The position numbers and the translations under genes were made by a program. A DNA stretch of 15,693 nucleotides from a virus (lineage: Duplodnaviria > Heunggongvirae > Uroviricota > Caudoviricetes): the IMG/VR virus record IMGVR_UViG_2778261355_000012; one strand, given 5' to 3'. The number at the start of each line of letters is the position of its first letter. Positions within the stretch are counted from its first letter, which is position 1. This document shows positions 8,020 through 14,472 of the stretch, piece by piece. The notes beneath the pieces are model-generated. The model saw only the letters and a list, made by a program, of their open reading frames with translations. It ran no database searches and was not told the origin of the DNA.

Positions 8020-8268
8020 TTATTGTTTCACTGGCTCCCGCATTCTGCGTCTTATTTTCCACAAATATTCGATCATCGCTTCCACCTGCTCACGGTTGGT
8101 TGCGAAAATTTCCCCGGTCAGTGAGCTACGCAGAAAATCATGATGATCCACAAAAAATAACGCATCGGAAGAAAGCAACCGACGATATTTTTTTGCTGTC
8201 GTGGTTTCCAGATCATCAAAACCATGAAGCTTTTTATGTTGCTGAACTTCTTCGAATGTCACTGGCAT
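8020..8268 (-). CDS. hypothetical protein (82 aa)
   Basis: Start overlaps the 3' end of the FinO-like gene by 10 nt; followed by the terminator; no motif recognised. Confidence 0.45.
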   Translation of the reverse strand: MPVTFEEVQQHKKLHGFDDLETTTAKKYRRLLSSDALFFVDHHDFLRSSLTGEIFATNREQVEAMIEYLWKIRRRMREPVKQ

Positions 8269-8789
8269 GTATCCCCCTTTGCTGCCCGGCGCTGGCGCTT
8301 GTGCTTCTCATTCAGCACCATCAGCCGTGTTTCTGCCTCCTGCTGTTCCTGTGGTGTCACTTCCCCACATGGCTGGCCTTTCAGGTCGTAACGTGCGCCA
8401 CCAGCTATCAGGGCGCGGTAATAGCGCGGAGACTGCGCATAGGATGCCAGCGTCGCACGTAATACCCCCGACCCGAATGCCAGCCCCCTGACGGCGATAT
8501 CCTGCATCAGGTCGTCGAATATCCCCACCTTAAGCGGCTTCGGTGCTTTATGGCTGAATAAGTCAGGCCACATCTCAGTGAGGCGGTTAACGCGTCGGCG
8601 GTTTTTGCGCTGCCTTTTGGTCATATGCTGCCACGGTGTCGCCCCTGTGGGCTTCTGCTGTGCGTTCTGATTGCCGGGTATCACTTTATGCGCCGATGTG
8701 GTTTTATCCTGCTCTTGCGCCGCCTGCGTCGTTTTCTGCGGCGTGCCGTAAATGCCTTTCGGCTTCCGGTTAATGGTCAGCGTTGTCAT
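8259..8789 (-). CDS. ProQ/FinO-domain RNA-binding protein
   Basis: Residues ~70-155 (WPDLFSHKAPKPLKVGIFDDLMQDIA...VLRATLASYAQSPRYYRALIAGGARYDLKGQPCGEVTPQEQ) align by eye with the E. coli ProQ N-terminal domain (FPHCF...PLKIGIFQDL...[35 protein letters not shown]); basic, low-complexity N-terminus. Confidence 0.8.
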   Translation of the reverse strand: MTTLTINRKPKGIYGTPQKTTQAAQEQDKTTSAHKVIPGNQNAQQKPTGATPWQHMTKRQRKNRRRVNRLTEMWPDLFSHKAPKPLKVGIFDDLMQDIAVRGLAFGSGVLRATLASYAQSPRYYRALIAGGARYDLKGQPCGEVTPQEQQEAETRLMVLNEKHKRQRRAAKGDTCQ

Positions 8790-9493: not shown

Positions 9494-9540
9494 AGGCTTT
9501 ACCTCACAGCAATAAAATAAAATTTTTGCATTTTAACCCT

Positions 9541-9770
9541 TCACCTGTTCACCTTTTGAGATTTTCCCTTTTTATTCATAATGTTAAGGGGTGAACAGTT
9601 TCACAAAAACTATTCACCAACTGTTCACCACTGTTCACCCTTAAAGCTCAATAAATAATCAAAAAGGTGAACAGTGAATAGTTTGGTGAACAGTTCACAA
9701 ATAACTGTTCACCCTATAATGTACTGATATAAAAGATATTTATCACAGGGTGAACAGTGGTGAACAGTTA
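9541..9770. repeat. iteron field: at least 9 perfect copies of TGTTCACC / GGTGAACA in both orientations plus variants, with an adjacent AT-rich tract; candidate replication origin
   Basis: Read directly: perfect octamers at ~9546, 9590, 9622, 9632, 9666, 9685, 9706, 9749, 9759; AT-rich tataatgtactgatataaaagatatttatc at ~9714-9743. The octamer is the one I recall as the phage P4 alpha-binding type I iteron. Confidence 0.8.
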
Positions 9771-9780
9771 TTCCATAAGT

Positions 9781-11595
9781 TTAATTTTTGCTGTCGTCAT
9801 TTGTGACCGATGCACATGATGGCATCCAGTCTTCTGAATCCTCTGTCAGTGTCACATTTGAACGCAAACCGTGCTTCGTTTTCCGTTTTATATACTCCCT
9901 GCCATATTCCGCCATTGCCCCCGGCATATCTTTACCGAAGCGCGTCAGTGTTACAGGTTTACCGAATCCGTGTGCCCTCATATATGCCAGATAGGCGTGA
10001 TAAAGATACCTGCGCGGACTGAACGGAATAATTTCGGCATTACCCACTAACAGACCATCACACATTACCGACGACATGAGATAGCCACAGAAGTCCACCA
10101 GCGAATCGCCCTCGCGTTTTATCACCAGAGCTTCTTCTGATTTCTGCTGCTCATACAGCAGGCGTTTAGCTTCGTCCTGGTCAGAAAAACGAGTAAGCAG
10201 ATGGCGAATCACAACCGCCAGCTCTCCTTCTATTTTTTCTGCCAGCATGGGGTCGCGCTCGTTCTCCGGTACAACCTCCGAAAAATTGAATATCACCCGA
10301 CGACGTGAGATCCCCCCGCTGCGGTCACTGAATGACATGGCGTTATTGTTCACCGCCAGCACGACCGCCTGAATGCGTGTTGAGTAGGGGGCTTTATGCT
10401 TCGGGTCGATTGCCACCTTGTCACCGCCTGTAATGGCCTTAATTCCTGCGCCATCACCAGCGTAGCGGGTCATATCCGGCATGATAATCAGCGAAAAGCC
10501 AACCACTAACGCGCGTTCCCTTGCATCTTCCAGCGCCTTCATGCTTGCCGATACTGTGTTGGCCTTACCCGCCAGCATGGTGCAAATCTCCGCCATCACG
10601 CTTTTACCACTTCCCCCTGGACCTGTTACCTCAATGAATAACTGCCAGTCGTACCGGTTCGCCAGCACCATGAATAATGCAGCCAGCACGCGATCCGTCT
10701 TGCGGTCATTCTCTGCCACCGAGCGGCGTAACCACTTCCAGAAATTCGGCGCATGTGTTGCCAGCGTTTCCCCCTCTGCTGGTGGGCTGAAAGGTAATTC
10801 ACTGGCAATTAACAACCAGTCGTTTTTGTTATGCTCCCGAAAATTACCTGTTCTGGTATCAAATACCCCGTTACTGAATCCAATCAGGTTACGGGCTGTA
10901 TTCCCCATTACAGGCAAACTTAACTTCATGGTATCGACCGCCGATTTAATGGCGTTCTGCGAATAGCTGATCTCCGCATCAATGAAAATCTGCGCCATAG
11001 CACGCTGTAACTCTTTATCCTGAATCGGCTCCCATACAACGCCGTTGTAATGGTGAACAGTGTCAGAGTCGGCATGAATCGCCAGTTCACCGCCATAATG
11101 TGCCAGGAGAACTTCGCCGCGCTGGCTTGCTCCCATCTGGTTAAGCGCCAGTGGTGCGGCGCTGTCTTCTGTTTTTTTCTTAACAGGAAGCTGAATCACC
11201 AGACCATCAGAAAGATTCTGGCGCTCACGGGCCAGATATTCGCGCCAGTTCTGCACCTCCTGGCCGTGCATACCCTCAGGATAAAAATTTGCATCCTGTA
11301 CGCCTGCCGCCGCCAGCTTCTGACCAATCGCCTTTATCATTACTGGCGCAAGATATCCGGCCCTGAATATGCGCACGGATTTTCTGCCTTCCGGCACAAT
11401 TTGCAGCTTATCCAGTTCGGATAACTGCTGCTCCCCAAGCCACACAGGAGGCTCATTATCTCCGGCCATACGCGCGTCATGTTCCTGCCATTGTTTTGCG
11501 TGTGACCAGGCATCACTACCCGCAAAAATAATGACTTCTGTTTCTTTGTGTTTTATGCCGCGTAACTGCTGTTTTACGTTCGGTGCCAGTTTCAT
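9781..11595 (-). CDS. replication initiator with primase/helicase-type NTPase domain (P4 alpha-like / D5-family)
   Basis: 604 aa; Walker A GPGGSGKS mid-protein; iteron field lies immediately 3' of the gene; start overlaps the upstream 95-aa ORF (ATGA). Confidence 0.8.
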   Translation of the reverse strand: MKLAPNVKQQLRGIKHKETEVIIFAGSDAWSHAKQWQEHDARMAGDNEPPVWLGEQQLSELDKLQIVPEGRKSVRIFRAGYLAPVMIKAIGQKLAAAGVQDANFYPEGMHGQEVQNWREYLARERQNLSDGLVIQLPVKKKTEDSAAPLALNQMGASQRGEVLLAHYGGELAIHADSDTVHHYNGVVWEPIQDKELQRAMAQIFIDAEISYSQNAIKSAVDTMKLSLPVMGNTARNLIGFSNGVFDTRTGNFREHNKNDWLLIASELPFSPPAEGETLATHAPNFWKWLRRSVAENDRKTDRVLAALFMVLANRYDWQLFIEVTGPGGSGKSVMAEICTMLAGKANTVSASMKALEDARERALVVGFSLIIMPDMTRYAGDGAGIKAITGGDKVAIDPKHKAPYSTRIQAVVLAVNNNAMSFSDRSGGISRRRVIFNFSEVVPENERDPMLAEKIEGELAVVIRHLLTRFSDQDEAKRLLYEQQKSEEALVIKREGDSLVDFCGYLMSSVMCDGLLVGNAEIIPFSPRRYLYHAYLAYMRAHGFGKPVTLTRFGKDMPGAMAEYGREYIKRKTKHGLRSNVTLTEDSEDWMPSCASVTNDDSKN

Positions 11596-11879
11596 TTTTT
11601 ACCCCCTGCGACCAGCATTTCACGAATTTTGCGGATATGACTTGCTGCACGTTTCTGATTTACGGCTTTACGATGGCCCACCAGCGTGAAATCACGCCGG
11701 AACTGATAAACAGGCATCACGCAGTCATATTCGTAGCCATCACGGCGGTAAGTGATGCGCCGTTCTGCCACGTCTTTTATCGTTACCGTGCCGCCATAGT
11801 TATCCCGGAAAATATCGCCGGGGCGGATTTCAGGCCGAGCGGGGCCGCTGGCAGTAAAGCCAGAAATTTTCTGTTTCAT
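11592..11879 (-). CDS. hypothetical protein (95 aa)
   Basis: Translationally coupled to the replication gene; no motif recognised. Confidence 0.5.
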   Translation of the reverse strand: MKQKISGFTASGPARPEIRPGDIFRDNYGGTVTIKDVAERRITYRRDGYEYDCVMPVYQFRRDFTLVGHRKAVNQKRAASHIRKIREMLVAGGKK

Positions 11880-11884
11880 GGTTT

Positions 11885-12112
11885 TTATTCCGCGTTTATT
11901 TTTTTATCGTGAATTTCGATCGCTTTATTTAATTCGACGATTACCGTATCGAGTAATGAAATAAACGCACCAGCAAGATTAGATTCACGCTCATCTTCCG
12001 GCGCATCACTTAAACCATCAAGCCAGATAAGAAATATTTGCCTCAAACATTCACTGTTAGTCAGTGCGTTTTCTGCATGGCTCATTGATTTAAAATAACG
12101 GTCATCATGCAT
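11885..12112 (-). CDS. hypothetical protein (75 aa)
   Basis: ATG overlaps the stop of the upstream 67-aa ORF (ATGCATGA); acidic; no motif recognised. Confidence 0.45.
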   Translation of the reverse strand: MHDDRYFKSMSHAENALTNSECLRQIFLIWLDGLSDAPEDERESNLAGAFISLLDTVIVELNKAIEIHDKKINAE

Positions 12113-12308
12113 GGCGCACCCCCTGACGAATACGGGCGGCGAATACCATCACGCAGTCATCAGGAGATTGCTGGCGTGCTTCCTGTTCGCTGGTGGCCTC
12201 AATGGTAATCACGCGCGGTTGTGCCGTGCTCAGGGCGATAAAACGCCAGATGTATTTATTCAGGTTGTACGAGTCCCGCCCTTGCGGGTGTCTGGTATAA
12301 TTTCTCAT
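12105..12308 (-). CDS. hypothetical protein (67 aa), first gene of the replication-side operon
   Basis: Track ORF 12105..13013 trimmed to ATG at 12308 with GAGGT RBS 5 nt upstream; the long N-terminal extension is Ser/Cys-rich and antisense to plus-strand genes. Confidence 0.45.
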   Translation of the reverse strand: MRNYTRHPQGRDSYNLNKYIWRFIALSTAQPRVITIEATSEQEARQQSPDDCVMVFAARIRQGVRHA

Positions 12309-12389
12309 AGCTACCTCGATACTCTCGTTATCGTTGGTGGTTAGACGCCCTGCATGTGTTGCGAGCACTGCGGGGCGTTGCTCTTTTAG

Positions 12390-12435
12390 GTGTATTTCAC
12401 CTTTGCTTTTTAATTTACTCACTGGTGAAATACAC
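12390..12435. promoter_or_regulatory. perfect 12-bp inverted repeat GTGTATTTCACC-N22-GGTGAAATACAC in a divergent promoter region (candidate operator)
   Basis: Read directly; lies in the ~190-bp gap between the minus-strand 67-aa gene start and the plus-strand 59-aa gene start; TATACT -10-like hexamer downstream at ~12466. Confidence 0.5.
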
Positions 12436-12501
12436 TTCAAGCCTTTTTTTATCATTTTTTTTGCGTATACTGACATACACCAATTTTTAGGAGATCCAGA
12501 A

Positions 12502-12681
12502 ATGGCAACTGGTGCAAAGAACGCAAAATCACAAATGACAACTGTCAGAATCCCACATGAAGTAATGGATGATATTGAGCAACTTAAAGAACCTGGCGAA
12601 AGTACCGCTGGTTTTTTAGTTACTGCCGCAAAAGGCGAGATCAAACGCCGCCAGCGTCGCAAGGCCAAAGAGCAGGAGTAA
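12502..12681 (+). CDS. small putative DNA-binding protein (59 aa, possibly ribbon-helix-helix-like)
   Basis: Track ORF 12334..12681 trimmed to ATG at 12502 with AGGAG RBS ~9 nt upstream; MATGAKNAKSQMTTVRIPHEVMDDIEQLKEPGE... then a basic tail; the RHH assignment is a weak guess. Confidence 0.5.
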   Translation: MATGAKNAKSQMTTVRIPHEVMDDIEQLKEPGESTAGFLVTAAKGEIKRRQRRKAKEQE

Positions 12682-12738
12682 CCATCACCAGCGCCGTGGT
12701 GTGAGTAACTACGGCGCATTGCTATGCAGGACAACACA

Positions 12739-12912
12739 ATGACCGATAAAGAATTGACCAAAACATTATCACCGGCACGGAAAAGACGGCGCAGAAAGAT
12801 AGAGCATGAATCAGAAAGATTCGCGCCATGTGCTTTTGCCCTTGAGCAATTCCTTAAAGAGCACAGGAAAAAGCTCTCGTTGCAAACCTTGGAACGAACC
12901 AAATCTGACTGA
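12739..12912 (+). CDS. hypothetical basic protein (57 aa; alternative start 12724)
   Basis: Follows the 59-aa gene on the same strand and is followed by a strong terminator; arginine-rich (ARKRRRRK). Confidence 0.4.
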   Translation: MTDKELTKTLSPARKRRRRKIEHESERFAPCAFALEQFLKEHRKKLSLQTLERTKSD

Positions 12913-12976
12913 TCACATTGCCCACCAGCCAGCAAATCACTATGATGTTCGGGCTTATGTTTAGTGTTTTCCCATT

Positions 12977-13008
12977 GGCGACCGCCCCCGGTCGCCTTTG
13001 TTTTATGT
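12977..13008 (+). terminator. rho-independent terminator after the plus-strand cassette
   Basis: GGCGACCG-cccc-CGGTCGCC perfect 8-bp GC stem followed by TTTGTTTT on the plus strand; prevents read-through antisense into alpA. Confidence 0.7.
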
Positions 13009-13022
13009 GTCATAACTCCCCC

Positions 13023-13307
13023 TTATGCAGCTTTCTTACCGTACGGATTATTGACTTTATCTACAGCAGGTGGGTTACGAACCCACCAAAGCACATCAGA
13101 GAGAAGCCACGCACAGCTATTGCGCCCGAAATGACAACGAGGCGGGAAACGCCCTTCATTTTCCATTTTGAAGCGAGTTGAGCGCGACAGACTGGTAATT
13201 TCCTGGCATTCCTTTTCACGGATACGGCGATCAAATTCAAAACCGTATTCTTCAAGAAGCGCCCGGCGTTGTTCTGGAGTTGGGGGAATGAATGTGGTTT
13301 TTGTCAT
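13023..13307 (-). CDS. alpA: AlpA-family transcriptional regulator (prophage CP4-57-type)
   Basis: Track ORF trimmed to ATG at 13307 with GGAGG RBS; HTH segment EITSLSRSTRFKMENEGRFPP...WLLSDVLWWV matches the AlpA pattern from memory. Confidence 0.8.
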   Translation of the reverse strand: MTKTTFIPPTPEQRRALLEEYGFEFDRRIREKECQEITSLSRSTRFKMENEGRFPPRCHFGRNSCAWLLSDVLWWVRNPPAVDKVNNPYGKKAA

Positions 13308-13389
13308 ATTGCCTCCACTGTATCTATGCTTGCGGAGGCTATTTTGCAATCTTTAATACTGGATTAAAACACAGTAGTAATCATAGAAA

Positions 13390-13422
13390 CATACTGATAA
13401 TGCTTATAAATATATCAGTATG
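13390..13422. promoter_or_regulatory. 10-bp inverted repeat CATACTGATA-N13-TATCAGTATG between the 309-aa gene and alpA
   Basis: Read directly; could be a weak AT-rich terminator for the 309-aa gene or an operator for the alpA promoter. Confidence 0.35.
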
Positions 13423-13444
13423 CTTAGGAGTATATGAGTAAGGC

Positions 13445-14374
13445 TTACTGCGATCTTTCACTCGGCCTCTTATGAGCATTACTTAAAATTGCTGCTATTT
13501 TTGTTTCTGTTTTTATTGGCAATTCACTATTAATGAACCAATCAGGTCTGGCGATCAACTCACGAGCCCAAGCAGAATAGTTAATCGTTCCATCGTTTTT
13601 TCTGCAGGTCTCATTAAAAGTATTTTGTTGCTCTTCTTTAAAACGCATAGCAACCATTAAAATTTGCTCTCGATTTCTTGCATGTCTTTCAGCAGAATGG
13701 TGCACAATTTCATTGCCATTCATCTTGTGAGGTTCTACAGATTCAAAATTATCTGTTAGCGTAAAATAATCGCCACCACAGTCAAGAAGTCGCCTTATAT
13801 CATGAGCGGTAATCCACAAGTCATTTATAGAAATATTATTCTTTAATATTTGATCGTCTTCTTCATCATAATCACTATCTTCACCAACCATTAAAAGTTG
13901 TACGGCAGGATTATCAGTTTCTGGATGACACGGGGTTAATTCAAAACCACTTAGGGAATACTCTCCAAAATTTTGTAGCTCTTCCAGCCCACTCCAAAGA
14001 CGCCACAATCCATAAGCCCTACCAATAGAGCTAAAGCATCCGTTTTCTGAGTCTTGACCGAATAAAGGCGCGTGTATAGTTTCATCTGTCTCCTCATTAT
14101 AATTGTATCTGAAAAGATGAAATCTGGAGTATTCCGTAATATTGTTCCCCATCAGTGATGTGGTCGATTTTGCATTTCTGGTATCAAACCAAGCAGTTGC
14201 AGACTCGCTATCAGTATTCATATATAAAACAGCGCGAGCATCAAATAAATTTAGGCATAAAGCTATTTTTTTAGTAACACCTAAATTCACGAGATCGCTA
14301 ATCTCGCAACCCAGCAATCTTGATGCACGTTCAATGTTGCAATACTGAAAAGGAATTTTAATGTCGTTAGCCAT
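13445..14374 (-). CDS. hypothetical protein (309 aa), AT-rich cargo gene between int and alpA
   Basis: Long clean ORF with GAGGG RBS 6 nt upstream; markedly lower GC than flanking genes (by eye); acidic central stretch EDSDYDEEDDQ; no domain recognised. Confidence 0.7.
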   Translation of the reverse strand: MANDIKIPFQYCNIERASRLLGCEISDLVNLGVTKKIALCLNLFDARAVLYMNTDSESATAWFDTRNAKSTTSLMGNNITEYSRFHLFRYNYNEETDETIHAPLFGQDSENGCFSSIGRAYGLWRLWSGLEELQNFGEYSLSGFELTPCHPETDNPAVQLLMVGEDSDYDEEDDQILKNNISINDLWITAHDIRRLLDCGGDYFTLTDNFESVEPHKMNGNEIVHHSAERHARNREQILMVAMRFKEEQQNTFNETCRKNDGTINYSAWARELIARPDWFINSELPIKTETKIAAILSNAHKRPSERSQ

Positions 14375-14472
14375 TGCGCTACCCTCAACGCCCTAAATAC
14401 TTTACGAGCCAGGCGGGTAGGGTTTCCCGCTTTTCGGTTGGCCGACCTATGCCCGTAATATCAGTTTAACCT

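What the first reader, a model, noticed from the sequence alone, without database searches (positions are those of the whole stretch)
11592..12308. Three translationally coupled small ORFs upstream of the replication gene
ORFs of 67, 75 and 95 aa with overlapping stop/start codons lead the replication operon. None is recognisable. The equivalent position in other satellites and prophages often holds derepression or helper-interference factors.
Basis: inference. Interest (0 to 1): 0.4.

Follow-up and report, generated by a model that had tools for sequence, protein, structure and literature searches.

The report
Leader genes of a satellite's replication operon
The three small genes are real and conserved but mostly ordinary: they head the replication operon of a phage-satellite island in E. 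coli, two belong to known families (Icd/Kil cell-division inhibitor, RgdR/DUF4222), and the first is probably the tail of a longer gene.

Summary
The window is 100% identical to E. coli ATCC 43886. It is a ~15-kb capsid-forming PICI-type satellite next to hpt.

The three minus-strand ORFs exist exactly as described (67, 75 and 95 aa). Only two junctions overlap; ORF2 and ORF3 are 5 nt apart.

"None is recognisable" is wrong.
- **ORF1** is Icd-like (NF033153, 72 bits). It is homologous to P1 Icd and the Kil end of P4 Eta.
- **ORF3** is DUF4222, 57% identical to the EHEC regulator RgdR. Its model is a Tudor/KOW-like barrel plus a basic helix.
- **ORF2** is an α-hairpin of a small unnamed family. 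That family usually sits directly upstream of DUF4222.

All three are intact, with pN/pS of 0.12–0.43. In 84 of 88 relatives the DUF4222 stop overlaps the replication gene start by 4 nt, across three helicase types that share one N-terminal domain.

ORF1 is also the last 67 codons of a 302-codon ORF. That ORF starts with a strong Shine-Dalgarno 10 nt after alpA. Its frame stays open in most relatives although its residues evolve neutrally, and a YlcI/YnfO gene lies antisense inside it.

No similarity to P4 ε or Cnr was found. These are new members of known kinds, of modest interest.

The parts
12105..12308 (-). ORF1: Icd/Kil-family unit (67 aa counted from the internal ATG at 12308). PGAP calls it 'host cell division inhibitor Icd-like protein'.
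   Evidence: NF033153 at 72.2 bits against a cut-off of 25. 32% identity to P1 Icd, E 7e-7. P4 Eta residues 85-132 hit the same model at 73.9 bits. pN/pS 0.43 over 40 alleles. GAGG lies 7 nt before the ATG.
12105..13013 (-). 302-codon ORF in the ORF1 frame (long, Eta-like form of the Icd-like protein). Its start is coupled to alpA.
   Evidence: TAA GGGGGAGTT ATG lies directly after alpA. There are 0 in-frame stops in the 600 nt upstream of the Icd unit, against 13 and 11 in the other frames. 19 of 25 sequence clusters of relatives are open in this frame. 300-425-aa proteins covering the whole query at 70-89% identity are annotated as Icd-like/Ash in many genomes. However, pN/pS is 1.12 in the 12309-12512 stretch.
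11885..12112 (-). ORF2: 75-aa alpha-helical hairpin protein of a small unnamed family. It is the usual upstream neighbour of DUF4222.
   Evidence: phrog_2196, E 1.6e-22. About a dozen 63-88-aa families at 50% clustering. AF2 pLDDT 91, helices 4-32 and 38-74. No significant fold match. The family sits directly upstream of DUF4222 in 63 of 88 loci and in distant members. This allele is present in 65 of 5426 E. coli genomes.
11592..11879 (-). ORF3: DUF4222 / RgdR-family protein (95 aa). Its stop overlaps the primase start by 4 nt.
9781..11595 (-). Replication protein (604 aa): a shared N-terminal domain (about residues 1-135, 11191-11595) fused to a D5_N/SF3 helicase like the C-terminal half of P4 alpha.
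   Evidence: Pfam D5_N, DUF5906 and Pox_D5. 49% identity to P4 alpha residues 313-776. The N-terminal ~135 aa are 60-88% identical to the N-termini of the DUF927-type and RepA/AAA_25-type replication proteins of related islands.
13023..13307 (-). alpA (AlpA-family HTH), the activator gene upstream of the operon.
   Evidence: PF05930 at 46 bits. AlpA is the activator of E. coli PICIs (PMC6092414).
12502..12681 (+). YlcI/YnfO-family gene, antisense inside the 302-codon ORF.
   Evidence: NF041551 at 64 bits. Mismatch pattern pos3 > pos1 > pos2 in its own frame. pN/pS 0.37. Embedded antisense in 50 of 57 related long ORFs.
12385..12440 (.). Operator-like 17-nt inverted repeat (a third half-site lies at 12471-12481), between the ORF1 internal start and the YlcI start.
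   Evidence: the repeat finder I1 and I16. Function not tested.

Best explanation
The interval is the front of the AlpA-led early (replication) operon of a ~15-kb capsid-forming PICI-type satellite, integrated between hpt and gcd in E. coli ATCC 43886. It holds three real coding units.

1. ORF1 is an Icd/Kil-family unit. It is also the C-terminal 67 codons of a 302-codon ORF that begins 10 nt after alpA.
2. ORF2 is a 75-aa alpha-hairpin protein and the usual partner of DUF4222.
3. ORF3 is a 95-aa RgdR-family (DUF4222) protein. It has a Tudor/KOW-like barrel plus a basic helix, and its stop overlaps the start of the replication protein.

Shown here: family membership, intactness and purifying selection, the fixed gene order and junction geometry, the shared N-terminal domain of the replication proteins, and the open long frame.

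Inferred mechanism:
- Once a helper phage switches on alpA, ribosomes pass in a nearly gap-free relay: alpA, long Icd ORF, ORF2, ORF3, rep. The replication protein is therefore made only when the leader is translated, as in P1 icd-ant and P4 eta-alpha.
- The Icd unit arrests host division or growth during induction.
- ORF2 and ORF3 act together on the replication protein's shared N-terminal domain, or on DNA/RNA polymerase, to set up or tune replication.
- The effects of RgdR on host virulence genes and motility would be a side activity of that function.
For: - Identity of the island: 100% match and PGAP gene list; int-alpA RNA motif; ori-like iterons after the primase.
- ORF1: NF033153; P1 Icd similarity; P4 Eta C-terminus hits the same model; P1 icd overlaps ant1 by 4 nt and is annotated as required for ant expression.
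- Long ORF: strong Shine-Dalgarno after alpA; frame open in 19 of 25 clusters; long forms annotated widely.
- ORF3: PF13973; 57% identity to RgdR; fold.
- Synteny: a 4-nt overlap with rep in 84 of 88 relatives across three helicase types that share one N-terminal domain. DUF4222 also overlaps the replication gene in lambdoid Klebsiella phages.
- The ORF2-family/DUF4222 pair is kept even at 30-35% identity.
- pN/pS is 0.12-0.43.
- Literature: AlpA activates downstream PICI genes (PMC6092414). Translation of P4 eta prevents termination (PMC10111431). RgdR binds DNA non-specifically and alters LEE and motility (PMC3378721). [quoted passage not shown]
Against: - No experiment exists on this island. 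Every functional step is by analogy.
- ORF2/ORF3 are separated by 5 nt and ORF3 has a weak Shine-Dalgarno, so coupling there is only plausible.
- The stretch upstream of ORF1 shows no amino-acid constraint (pN/pS 1.12; uniform mismatch positions). It is Cys/Ser-rich, like antisense translation. PGAP in this genome calls the short form plus YlcI.
- No C4/CI-type RNA was found, so the P1/P4 regulatory analogy is incomplete.
- ORF3 has PGD where RgdR has the RGD motif.
- In distant relatives two further small ORFs separate DUF4222 from the primase, so direct coupling to rep is not universal.
Confidence: 0.6

Rival explanations
1. One reading: ORF2 and/or ORF3 are helper-directed factors, such as derepression of the helper prophage (like P4 epsilon) or interference with helper reproduction.
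For: - ORF2 occupies the position that epsilon holds after eta/kil in P4.
- The stretch between the Icd unit and DUF4222 is a variable cassette region with 1-5 small ORFs. The ORF2 allele is rare, in 65 of 5426 genomes. Both are typical of arms-race genes.
Against: - No similarity to epsilon, Cnr or orf151.
- No PADLOC hit.
- DUF4222 occurs in the same place in ordinary lambdoid phages.
- The ORF2 family is tied to DUF4222 over long evolutionary distance.
- The prototype EcCIEDL933 does not reduce helper titres.
Confidence: 0.12
2. The block from the Icd-like gene through the primase acts mainly as a phage-triggered growth-arrest (abortive-infection-like) module. [quoted passage not shown]
For: In ECOR61, a prophage-borne block of six linked genes arrested growth when phage gene orf24 was expressed. 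[quoted passage not shown] The window has the same kind of block, including the long Icd form.
Against: - The identity of the ECOR61 genes with those here was not checked.
- The arrest could simply be satellite induction.
- The primase plus ori, SSB and a full capsid/packaging module point to a replicating, transferable element.
- This rival does not exclude the main explanation.
Confidence: 0.2
3. ORF1 is only a stand-alone 67-aa gene expressed from its own promoter in the 12309-12501 spacer. The 302-codon frame is an untranslated shadow of the YlcI gene and of a decayed upstream gene.
For: - PGAP annotates the short form, YlcI and a pseudogene fragment here.
- About 20 relatives have a closed frame just upstream, with stand-alone 65-67-aa genes.
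- pN/pS is about 1 upstream.
- The wobble positions of the YlcI frame and the antisense frame coincide (shown directly by the sequence), which favours open shadow frames.
- An operator-like palindrome and a possible promoter lie in the spacer.
Against: - The openness extends well beyond YlcI, through sequence with no coding constraint on either strand, in 19 of 25 divergent clusters. The two other sense frames carry 3-10 stops there, and no antisense frame is stop-free over the 600 nt upstream.
- In-frame indels preserve the frame.
- A strong Shine-Dalgarno and ATG lie right after alpA.
- Both forms may coexist, as with P4 eta and kil.
Confidence: 0.2
4. The three ORFs are chance open frames in a non-coding leader.
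For: The window contains 106 ORFs of at least 40 aa, most of them spurious.
Against: - Curated family hits.
- Hundreds of intact homologues.
- pN/pS below 0.5.
- Depletion of stop-creating changes in frame.
- Confident fold predictions.
Confidence: 0.01

Closest known systems
P1 Icd (icd-ant1/2, immI operon) and P4 Kil/Eta (left operon)
   Same: ORF1 matches the same curated Icd-like model as both. It is the first small protein unit of an operon and overlaps the next gene, as P1 icd overlaps ant1 by 4 nt. As in P4, the short unit is nested at the 3' end of a longer ORF that follows the AlpA/Vis homologue and precedes the primase gene.
   Different: - No C4/CI antisense RNA or seqA-type site was detected by Rfam.
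- Direct identity to P4 Eta is negligible, and only 32% to P1 Icd.
- The N-terminal extension here is not an Ash domain and carries an antisense YlcI/YnfO gene.
- Cell-division inhibition is untested.
RgdR (ECs1581) of EHEC O157:H7 island OI-51/CP-933C, DUF4222 family
   Same: 57% identical, with the same architecture. It sits in the same place: 5 nt after an ORF2-family gene, with its stop overlapping the replication gene, in an island with the same capsid-forming gene set.
   Different: - 95 aa against 99 aa.
- PGD instead of the RGD motif at residues 20-22.
- The other type of C-terminal tail.
- The downstream helicase is D5/P4-type instead of DUF927.
- Whether it affects host transcription is unknown.
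Capsid-forming PICIs (prototype EcCIEDL933) and classical E. coli PICIs (EcCICFT073)
   Same: int, alpA, rep plus ori, SSB, then capsid, protease, portal, connector, HNH, TerS and TerL with no tail genes, in about 15 kb. AlpA-dependent induction is described for this class.
   Different: The small ORFs between alpA and rep have not been individually characterised in the PICI papers I could read. This island sits at hpt and carries a ProQ/FinO gene instead of PerC.
P4 epsilon (helper derepression) and P4 Cnr (copy-number control, directly upstream of alpha)
   Same: Positional analogy only. Epsilon follows eta/kil with an 8-nt overlap, as ORF2 follows ORF1. Cnr directly precedes the primase gene, as ORF3 does.
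   Different: No sequence similarity by BLASTP or HMM. The folds were not compared.

Membership tests
Icd-like (NCBIfam NF033153; P1 Icd / P4 Kil) | Sequence match to the curated family model above its cut-off | tested here: met
   72.2 bits against a cut-off of 25, residues 19-62. Pairwise to P1 Icd: 32% identity, E 7e-7.
Icd-like (NCBIfam NF033153; P1 Icd / P4 Kil) | Leader position with stop/start overlap to the next gene of the operon | tested here: met
   8-nt overlap with ORF2. P1 icd/ant1 overlap by 4 nt. P4 eta/epsilon overlap by 8 nt.
Icd-like (NCBIfam NF033153; P1 Icd / P4 Kil) | Control by a C4/CI-type antisense RNA acting on the leader | tested here: not met
   No C4 or isrK hit in the window at E <= 1, nor in 12250-13450 at E <= 10. 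This is a feature of the P1/P4 systems, not of the protein family.
Icd-like (NCBIfam NF033153; P1 Icd / P4 Kil) | Inhibits host cell division or kills when expressed | not testable with these tools
   Needs expression in E. coli and microscopy or viability counts.
DUF4222 / RgdR | Pfam PF13973 match above the gathering score | tested here: met
   87.1 bits against 27, residues 16-67.
DUF4222 / RgdR | RGD tripeptide at residues 20-22, reported as important for T3S activation | tested here: not met
   The window has R19-P20-G21-D22 (alignment). RgdR has M19-R20-G21-D22. A CGD variant was reported inactive on T3S (PMC3378721).
DUF4222 / RgdR | Encoded in a P4-like/PICI island directly upstream of the replication gene | tested here: met
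   (84 of 88 with a 4-nt overlap).
DUF4222 / RgdR | Regulates LEE1 and motility; binds DNA non-specifically | not testable with these tools
   Experimental property (PMC3378721).
Capsid-forming PICI | int, alpA and rep/ori, plus own capsid, protease, portal, connector and terminase, no tail genes, about 15 kb | tested here: met
   PGAP annotation of the identical record and Pfam scans.
Capsid-forming PICI | Induced by a helper phage and packaged in its own small capsids with helper tails | not testable with these tools
   Experimental.
P4 epsilon / P4 Cnr | Sequence similarity to epsilon (95 aa) or Cnr (ORF106, DUF5375) | tested here: not met
   No alignment at E <= 0.1 by BLASTP, and no HMM hit.

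The most novel reading that the evidence does not exclude
From alpA to the replication gene the island encodes one uninterrupted relay of translationally coupled ORFs. Within it, the ~235 codons upstream of the Icd unit are kept open only so that they are translated: the frame is conserved while the residues are free to drift. This would be a P4-eta-like device that lets transcription reach rep only when alpA is being translated. A bona fide YlcI/YnfO gene with its own terminator is embedded antisense in that leader, so that convergent transcription or an antisense RNA would take the place of the P1/P4 C4/CI immunity RNA.
Probability: 0.3. Interest if true: 0.6.

Novelty: new member of a known kind. 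Interest (0 to 1): 0.3.

Why it matters
Islands carrying DNA similar to this region (matches mostly to parts of the 1.3-kb query) are found in about a third of complete E. coli genomes (1831 of 5426). The small genes between alpA and rep are still 'hypothetical' in the PICI literature I could read.

This analysis ties three separately described things to one conserved operon front: the virulence regulator RgdR, the Icd/Kil toxic leader peptides of P1 and P4, and the growth-arrest block seen in ECOR61. That gives them a common, testable context.

It also flags annotation inconsistency. The same gene is called as 67 aa in some genomes and as 300-425 aa in others. The practical value is modest: it gives better names and clear deletion and reporter experiments, not a new kind of system.

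Tried and rejected
- **Rfam for a P1/P4-type immunity RNA near ORF1.** Nothing was found. The MIR/RUF2 hits at 9521-9783 are artefacts of the ori iterons.
- **tblastn of ORF1 against phage genomes.** One hit only, in a 16.5-kb 'phage', so it was not informative about P1 or P4. A direct comparison with P4 Eta was insignificant; the link comes through the curated profile and P1 Icd.
- **ORF2 fold search.** Only generic helical hairpins, best E 0.47, so no function was inferred.
- **PDB sequence searches for ORF1 and DUF4222.** No hits.
- **PADLOC.** No hits.
- **Scan of one genome per species with the DUF4222 alignment.** Only 2 loci, because the patterns were too specific. I used IMG/VR instead.
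- **Does the DUF4222 C-terminal tail type track the helicase type?** It does not, so a helicase-specific adaptor role for the tail was rejected.
- **My first reading of the 12309-12513 stretch.** I took it as unconstrained, because new in-frame stops were only slightly depleted (12 versus 18 and 20). One cluster dominated that count. Cluster-wise counting and the protein database show the frame is kept open.
- **Indel lengths from blastn alignments.** Too noisy to use.
- I scanned YlcI as 12514-12681. The gene is 12502-12681, same frame, four codons longer.
Full report
**What the window is.** The 1.3 kb around the finding is 100% identical to the chromosome of E. coli ATCC 43886. The annotated record shows a ~15-kb island between hpt and gcd. 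All of these genes are on the window's minus strand, in this order:
- integrase
- a 309-aa unknown
- an AlpA-type HTH
- the finding's three ORFs
- a primase/helicase
- a small unknown
- SSB
- ProQ/FinO
- another small unknown
- major capsid, prohead protease, portal, head-tail connector, HNH, TerS and TerL

There are no tail or lysis genes. Pfam and NCBIfam scans agree. Rfam finds the int-alpA RNA motif at 14391-14457. Iteron-like repeats lie just downstream of the primase. This is the gene set of the capsid-forming PICIs described for EcCIEDL933 (bioRxiv 10.1101/2022.09.08.507074).

**The observation.** The 604-aa replication gene starts at 11595.
- ORF1/ORF2 overlap by 8 nt (ATGCATGA).
- ORF3/primase overlap by 4 nt (ATGA).
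- ORF2 and ORF3 are separated by 5 nt, so 'overlapping stop/start codons' holds for two of the three junctions.

**They are recognisable.**
- ORF1 matches the curated model 'host cell division inhibitor Icd-like' (NF033153, 72 bits against a cut-off of 25). It is 32% identical to P1 Icd (E 7e-7).
- The obsolete 'cI ORF' of P4 is the Eta reading frame. Its residues 85-132 match the same model at 74 bits. That C-terminal piece, beginning MATTLTPSHPEF..., is what the P4 literature calls Kil. The 65-codon length is from my memory. The eta/kil relationship is as summarised in PMC10111431.
- The PHROG label 'transcriptional repressor' for ORF1's families looks like a carry-over of the old P4 'cI protein' annotation. 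It should be ignored.
- ORF3 is a DUF4222 protein (PF13973, 87 bits).
- In the O157:H7-type island L003, the DUF4222 protein has D10, R20-G21-D22, Q27, K35, H45 and R61. These are the residues reported for RgdR/ECs1581 (PMC3378721; sequence). ORF3 is 57% identical to it but has PGD instead of RGD.
- ORF2 has no Pfam or NCBIfam family. It matches phrog_2196, 8 near-identical clusters and about a dozen 63-88-aa families in an exhaustive profile search.

**Are they genes?** Yes.
- Pooled over distinct ungapped alleles, pN/pS is 0.43 (ORF1, 40 alleles), 0.12 (ORF2, 7) and 0.42 (ORF3, 14). For comparison it is 0.22 for the primase N-terminus.
- Substitutions that would create in-frame stops are depleted: 0-3 in frame against 2-22 out of frame.
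- Mismatches are enriched at third codon positions for ORF3 (51%) and ORF2 (45%), but only weakly for ORF1 (37%).
- All 88 DUF4222 genes in 86 related loci are open.

**Conserved anatomy across relatives.** I collected 6 E. coli and Shigella-group loci and 80 IMG/VR loci, and classified their ORFs with HMMs and BLAST.
- The order is Int - (AlpA) - Icd-like - 0 to 4 small ORFs - ORF2-family - DUF4222 - replication protein - SSB.
- The DUF4222 stop overlaps the replication start by exactly 4 nt in 84 of 88 cases.
- The helicase module is D5/P4-type in 42 cases, RepA/AAA_25-type in 38 and DUF927-type in 8.
- These three protein types are unrelated in their helicase parts. They share a homologous N-terminal ~135 residues at 60-88% identity.
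- The conserved block is therefore [ORF2 family] - 5 nt - [DUF4222] - (-4 nt) - [Rep N-domain].
- An ORF2-family gene lies directly upstream of DUF4222 in 63 of 88 loci. The gap is 5 nt in 46, 6 nt in 7 and 17 nt in 9.
- Members only 30-35% identical to ORF2 still sit immediately before a DUF4222 gene, in AlpA-led operons that end in a Zn-ribbon/Toprim/DUF927 primase.
- The two DUF4222 C-terminal tail types do not track the helicase type.
- Outside satellites, lambdoid Klebsiella phages carry a 70-aa DUF4222 gene between the cII-like gene and the replication gene, overlapping the latter.

**Structures.**
- ORF2 is predicted with confidence (pLDDT 91) as a two-helix hairpin. Foldseek finds nothing significant.
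- The ORF3 core (residues 23-68, pLDDT 91-93) is a five-stranded SH3/Tudor/KOW-like barrel. It is followed by a flexible linker and a basic helix at 75-92.
- This is fold-level resemblance only. It fits the reported non-specific DNA binding and pleiotropic transcriptional effects of RgdR, but it proves no target.

**ORF1 is probably the end of a longer gene.**
- The ORF1 frame is open for 302 codons, from 13013 to 12105.
- Its ATG follows the alpA stop by 10 nt and has a strong Shine-Dalgarno: TAA GGGGGAGTT ATG.
- In the 600 nt upstream of the Icd unit there are 0 in-frame stops, against 13 and 11 in the other sense frames. 50 of 81 related loci also have none, while the other frames average 11, and no antisense frame is open.
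- I grouped the 210 nt just upstream of the unit into 25 clusters at 85% identity. 19 clusters have no in-frame stop, although the other frames carry 3-10.
- A database search with the 302-aa translation returns 2163 clusters. The top 120 are 241-503-aa proteins (most 300-427 aa). Nearly all cover 94-100% of the query, at 62-90% identity, and many are named 'Icd-like' or 'ash family'. One is present on at least 1000 contigs.
- In the alignment the frame survives stretches of about 40-50% identity and in-frame indels.
- Yet the stretch 12309-12512 evolves with pN/pS 1.12 and uniform mismatch positions, and its translation is Cys/Ser-rich.
- About 20 relatives have a closed frame and a stand-alone 65-67-aa gene. 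The internal GAGG-ATG is conserved.

The simplest reading is nested long and short forms, as for P4 eta and kil. The long leader would matter more for being translated than for its sequence. That last step is inference.

**The antisense gene.** A YlcI/YnfO-family gene (12502-12681, plus strand; NF041551 at 64 bits) lies antisense inside the long ORF.
- Third codon positions of the two frames coincide.
- In that overlap the mismatch pattern is pos3 > pos1 > pos2 for the YlcI frame, and its pN/pS is 0.37. So YlcI is the frame constrained at protein level.
- A plus-strand terminator-like hairpin at 12977-13006 would end its transcript just before alpA.
- 50 of 57 related long ORFs contain such an antisense ORF.
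- An operator-like palindrome lies between the ORF1 internal start and the YlcI start.
- No C4/CI-type RNA is detectable.

**How it most likely works.**
- Shown in the literature: AlpA is the helper-induced activator of E. coli PICIs and activates downstream genes (PMC6092414). It is required for EcCIEDL933 induction.
- Inferred here: transcription from alpA runs into the long Icd ORF, ORF2, ORF3 and rep. The short or negative spacers make Rep synthesis depend on translation of the leader.
- Precedents: P1 icd is annotated as required for ant expression and overlaps ant1 by 4 nt. Translation of P4 eta prevents termination.
- The Icd unit probably arrests division or growth. [quoted passage not shown]
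- ORF2 and ORF3, always together and always attached to the shared Rep N-domain, most likely form an accessory pair for replication initiation or its control. The positional analogy is P4 Cnr. RgdR's effects on LEE and motility would be collateral.
It has no support: no similarity to epsilon, Cnr or orf151, no defence-library hit, and the prototype does not harm its helper.

**Verdict.** The feature is real and correctly located, but it is not unrecognisable and not very surprising.
- Two of the three genes belong to named families with some experimental history. The third belongs to a small unnamed family.
- The useful additions are:
  - the tight ORF2-family/DUF4222/Rep-N-domain block;
  - the link between RgdR and the PICI replication operon;
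  - the evidence that the '67-aa ORF' is the tail of a long, open but sequence-unconstrained leader ORF with an antisense gene inside it.
- Novelty: new members of known kinds.
- Interest: 0.3. The leader and antisense architecture is the only part that could be worth more.

Noticed in passing
window 12502-12681 (+), inside 12105-13013 (-): A YlcI/YnfO-family gene lies antisense within the 302-codon Icd-frame ORF, with wobble positions aligned. The same embedding occurs in 50 of 57 related loci. PGAP annotates either the long ORF or YlcI plus a short Icd gene, depending on the genome.
   Followed up: partly
window 12977-13006 (+): A terminator-like hairpin (GGCGACCGCCCCCGGTCGCC followed by TTTGTTTTAT) lies on the plus strand. 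It would stop the YlcI transcript just short of alpA, giving convergent transcription over the leader of the replication operon.
   Followed up: no
window 12385-12401 / 12424-12440, and 12471-12481: A 17-nt inverted repeat (GGTGTATTTCACC / GGTGAAATACAC) plus a third half-site lies in the spacer between the ORF1 internal start and the YlcI start. It looks like an operator. A weak -35/-10 pair on the minus strand (TTGAAG, 17 nt, TAAATT) overlaps it by eye.
   Followed up: no
window 14391-14457 (-): The int-alpA RNA motif (RF02996, 55 bits) lies between the integrase and a 309-aa ORF of unknown function (13445-14374; only phrog_7144), not directly before alpA.
   Followed up: no
window 9521-9783: AT-rich iteron-like repeats (GTGAACAG and variants) lie immediately downstream of the primase gene and are probably the island's origin. 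They produce spurious Rfam microRNA hits.
   Followed up: no
window 11191-11595 (-), and L003:7064-9196, L007:2260-3675: Three otherwise unrelated replication proteins (D5/SF3, DUF927, RepA/AAA_25) share a 60-88% identical N-terminal ~135-aa domain with no Pfam match. It travels with DUF4222 as a recombination or functional unit.
   Followed up: partly
window 8259-8789 (-): The island encodes a ProQ/FinO-family RNA chaperone (PF04352, 85 bits) between SSB and the capsid module. Related islands carry a PerC-family regulator at about this place.
   Followed up: no
window 11592-11690 (-), alignment A2: DUF4222 proteins are mosaics of one core with two alternative C-terminal tails (...VAGGKK or ...FRGKK). 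The tail type does not correlate with the helicase type downstream.
   Followed up: yes
L003 (NZ_CP015023.1 5133429-5151935): The O157:H7 island that encodes RgdR (OI-51/CP-933C type, with PerC/PchE) has the full capsid-forming PICI gene set. It is probably the same element as the published prototype EcCIEDL933. I could not confirm this from the papers read.
   Followed up: partly
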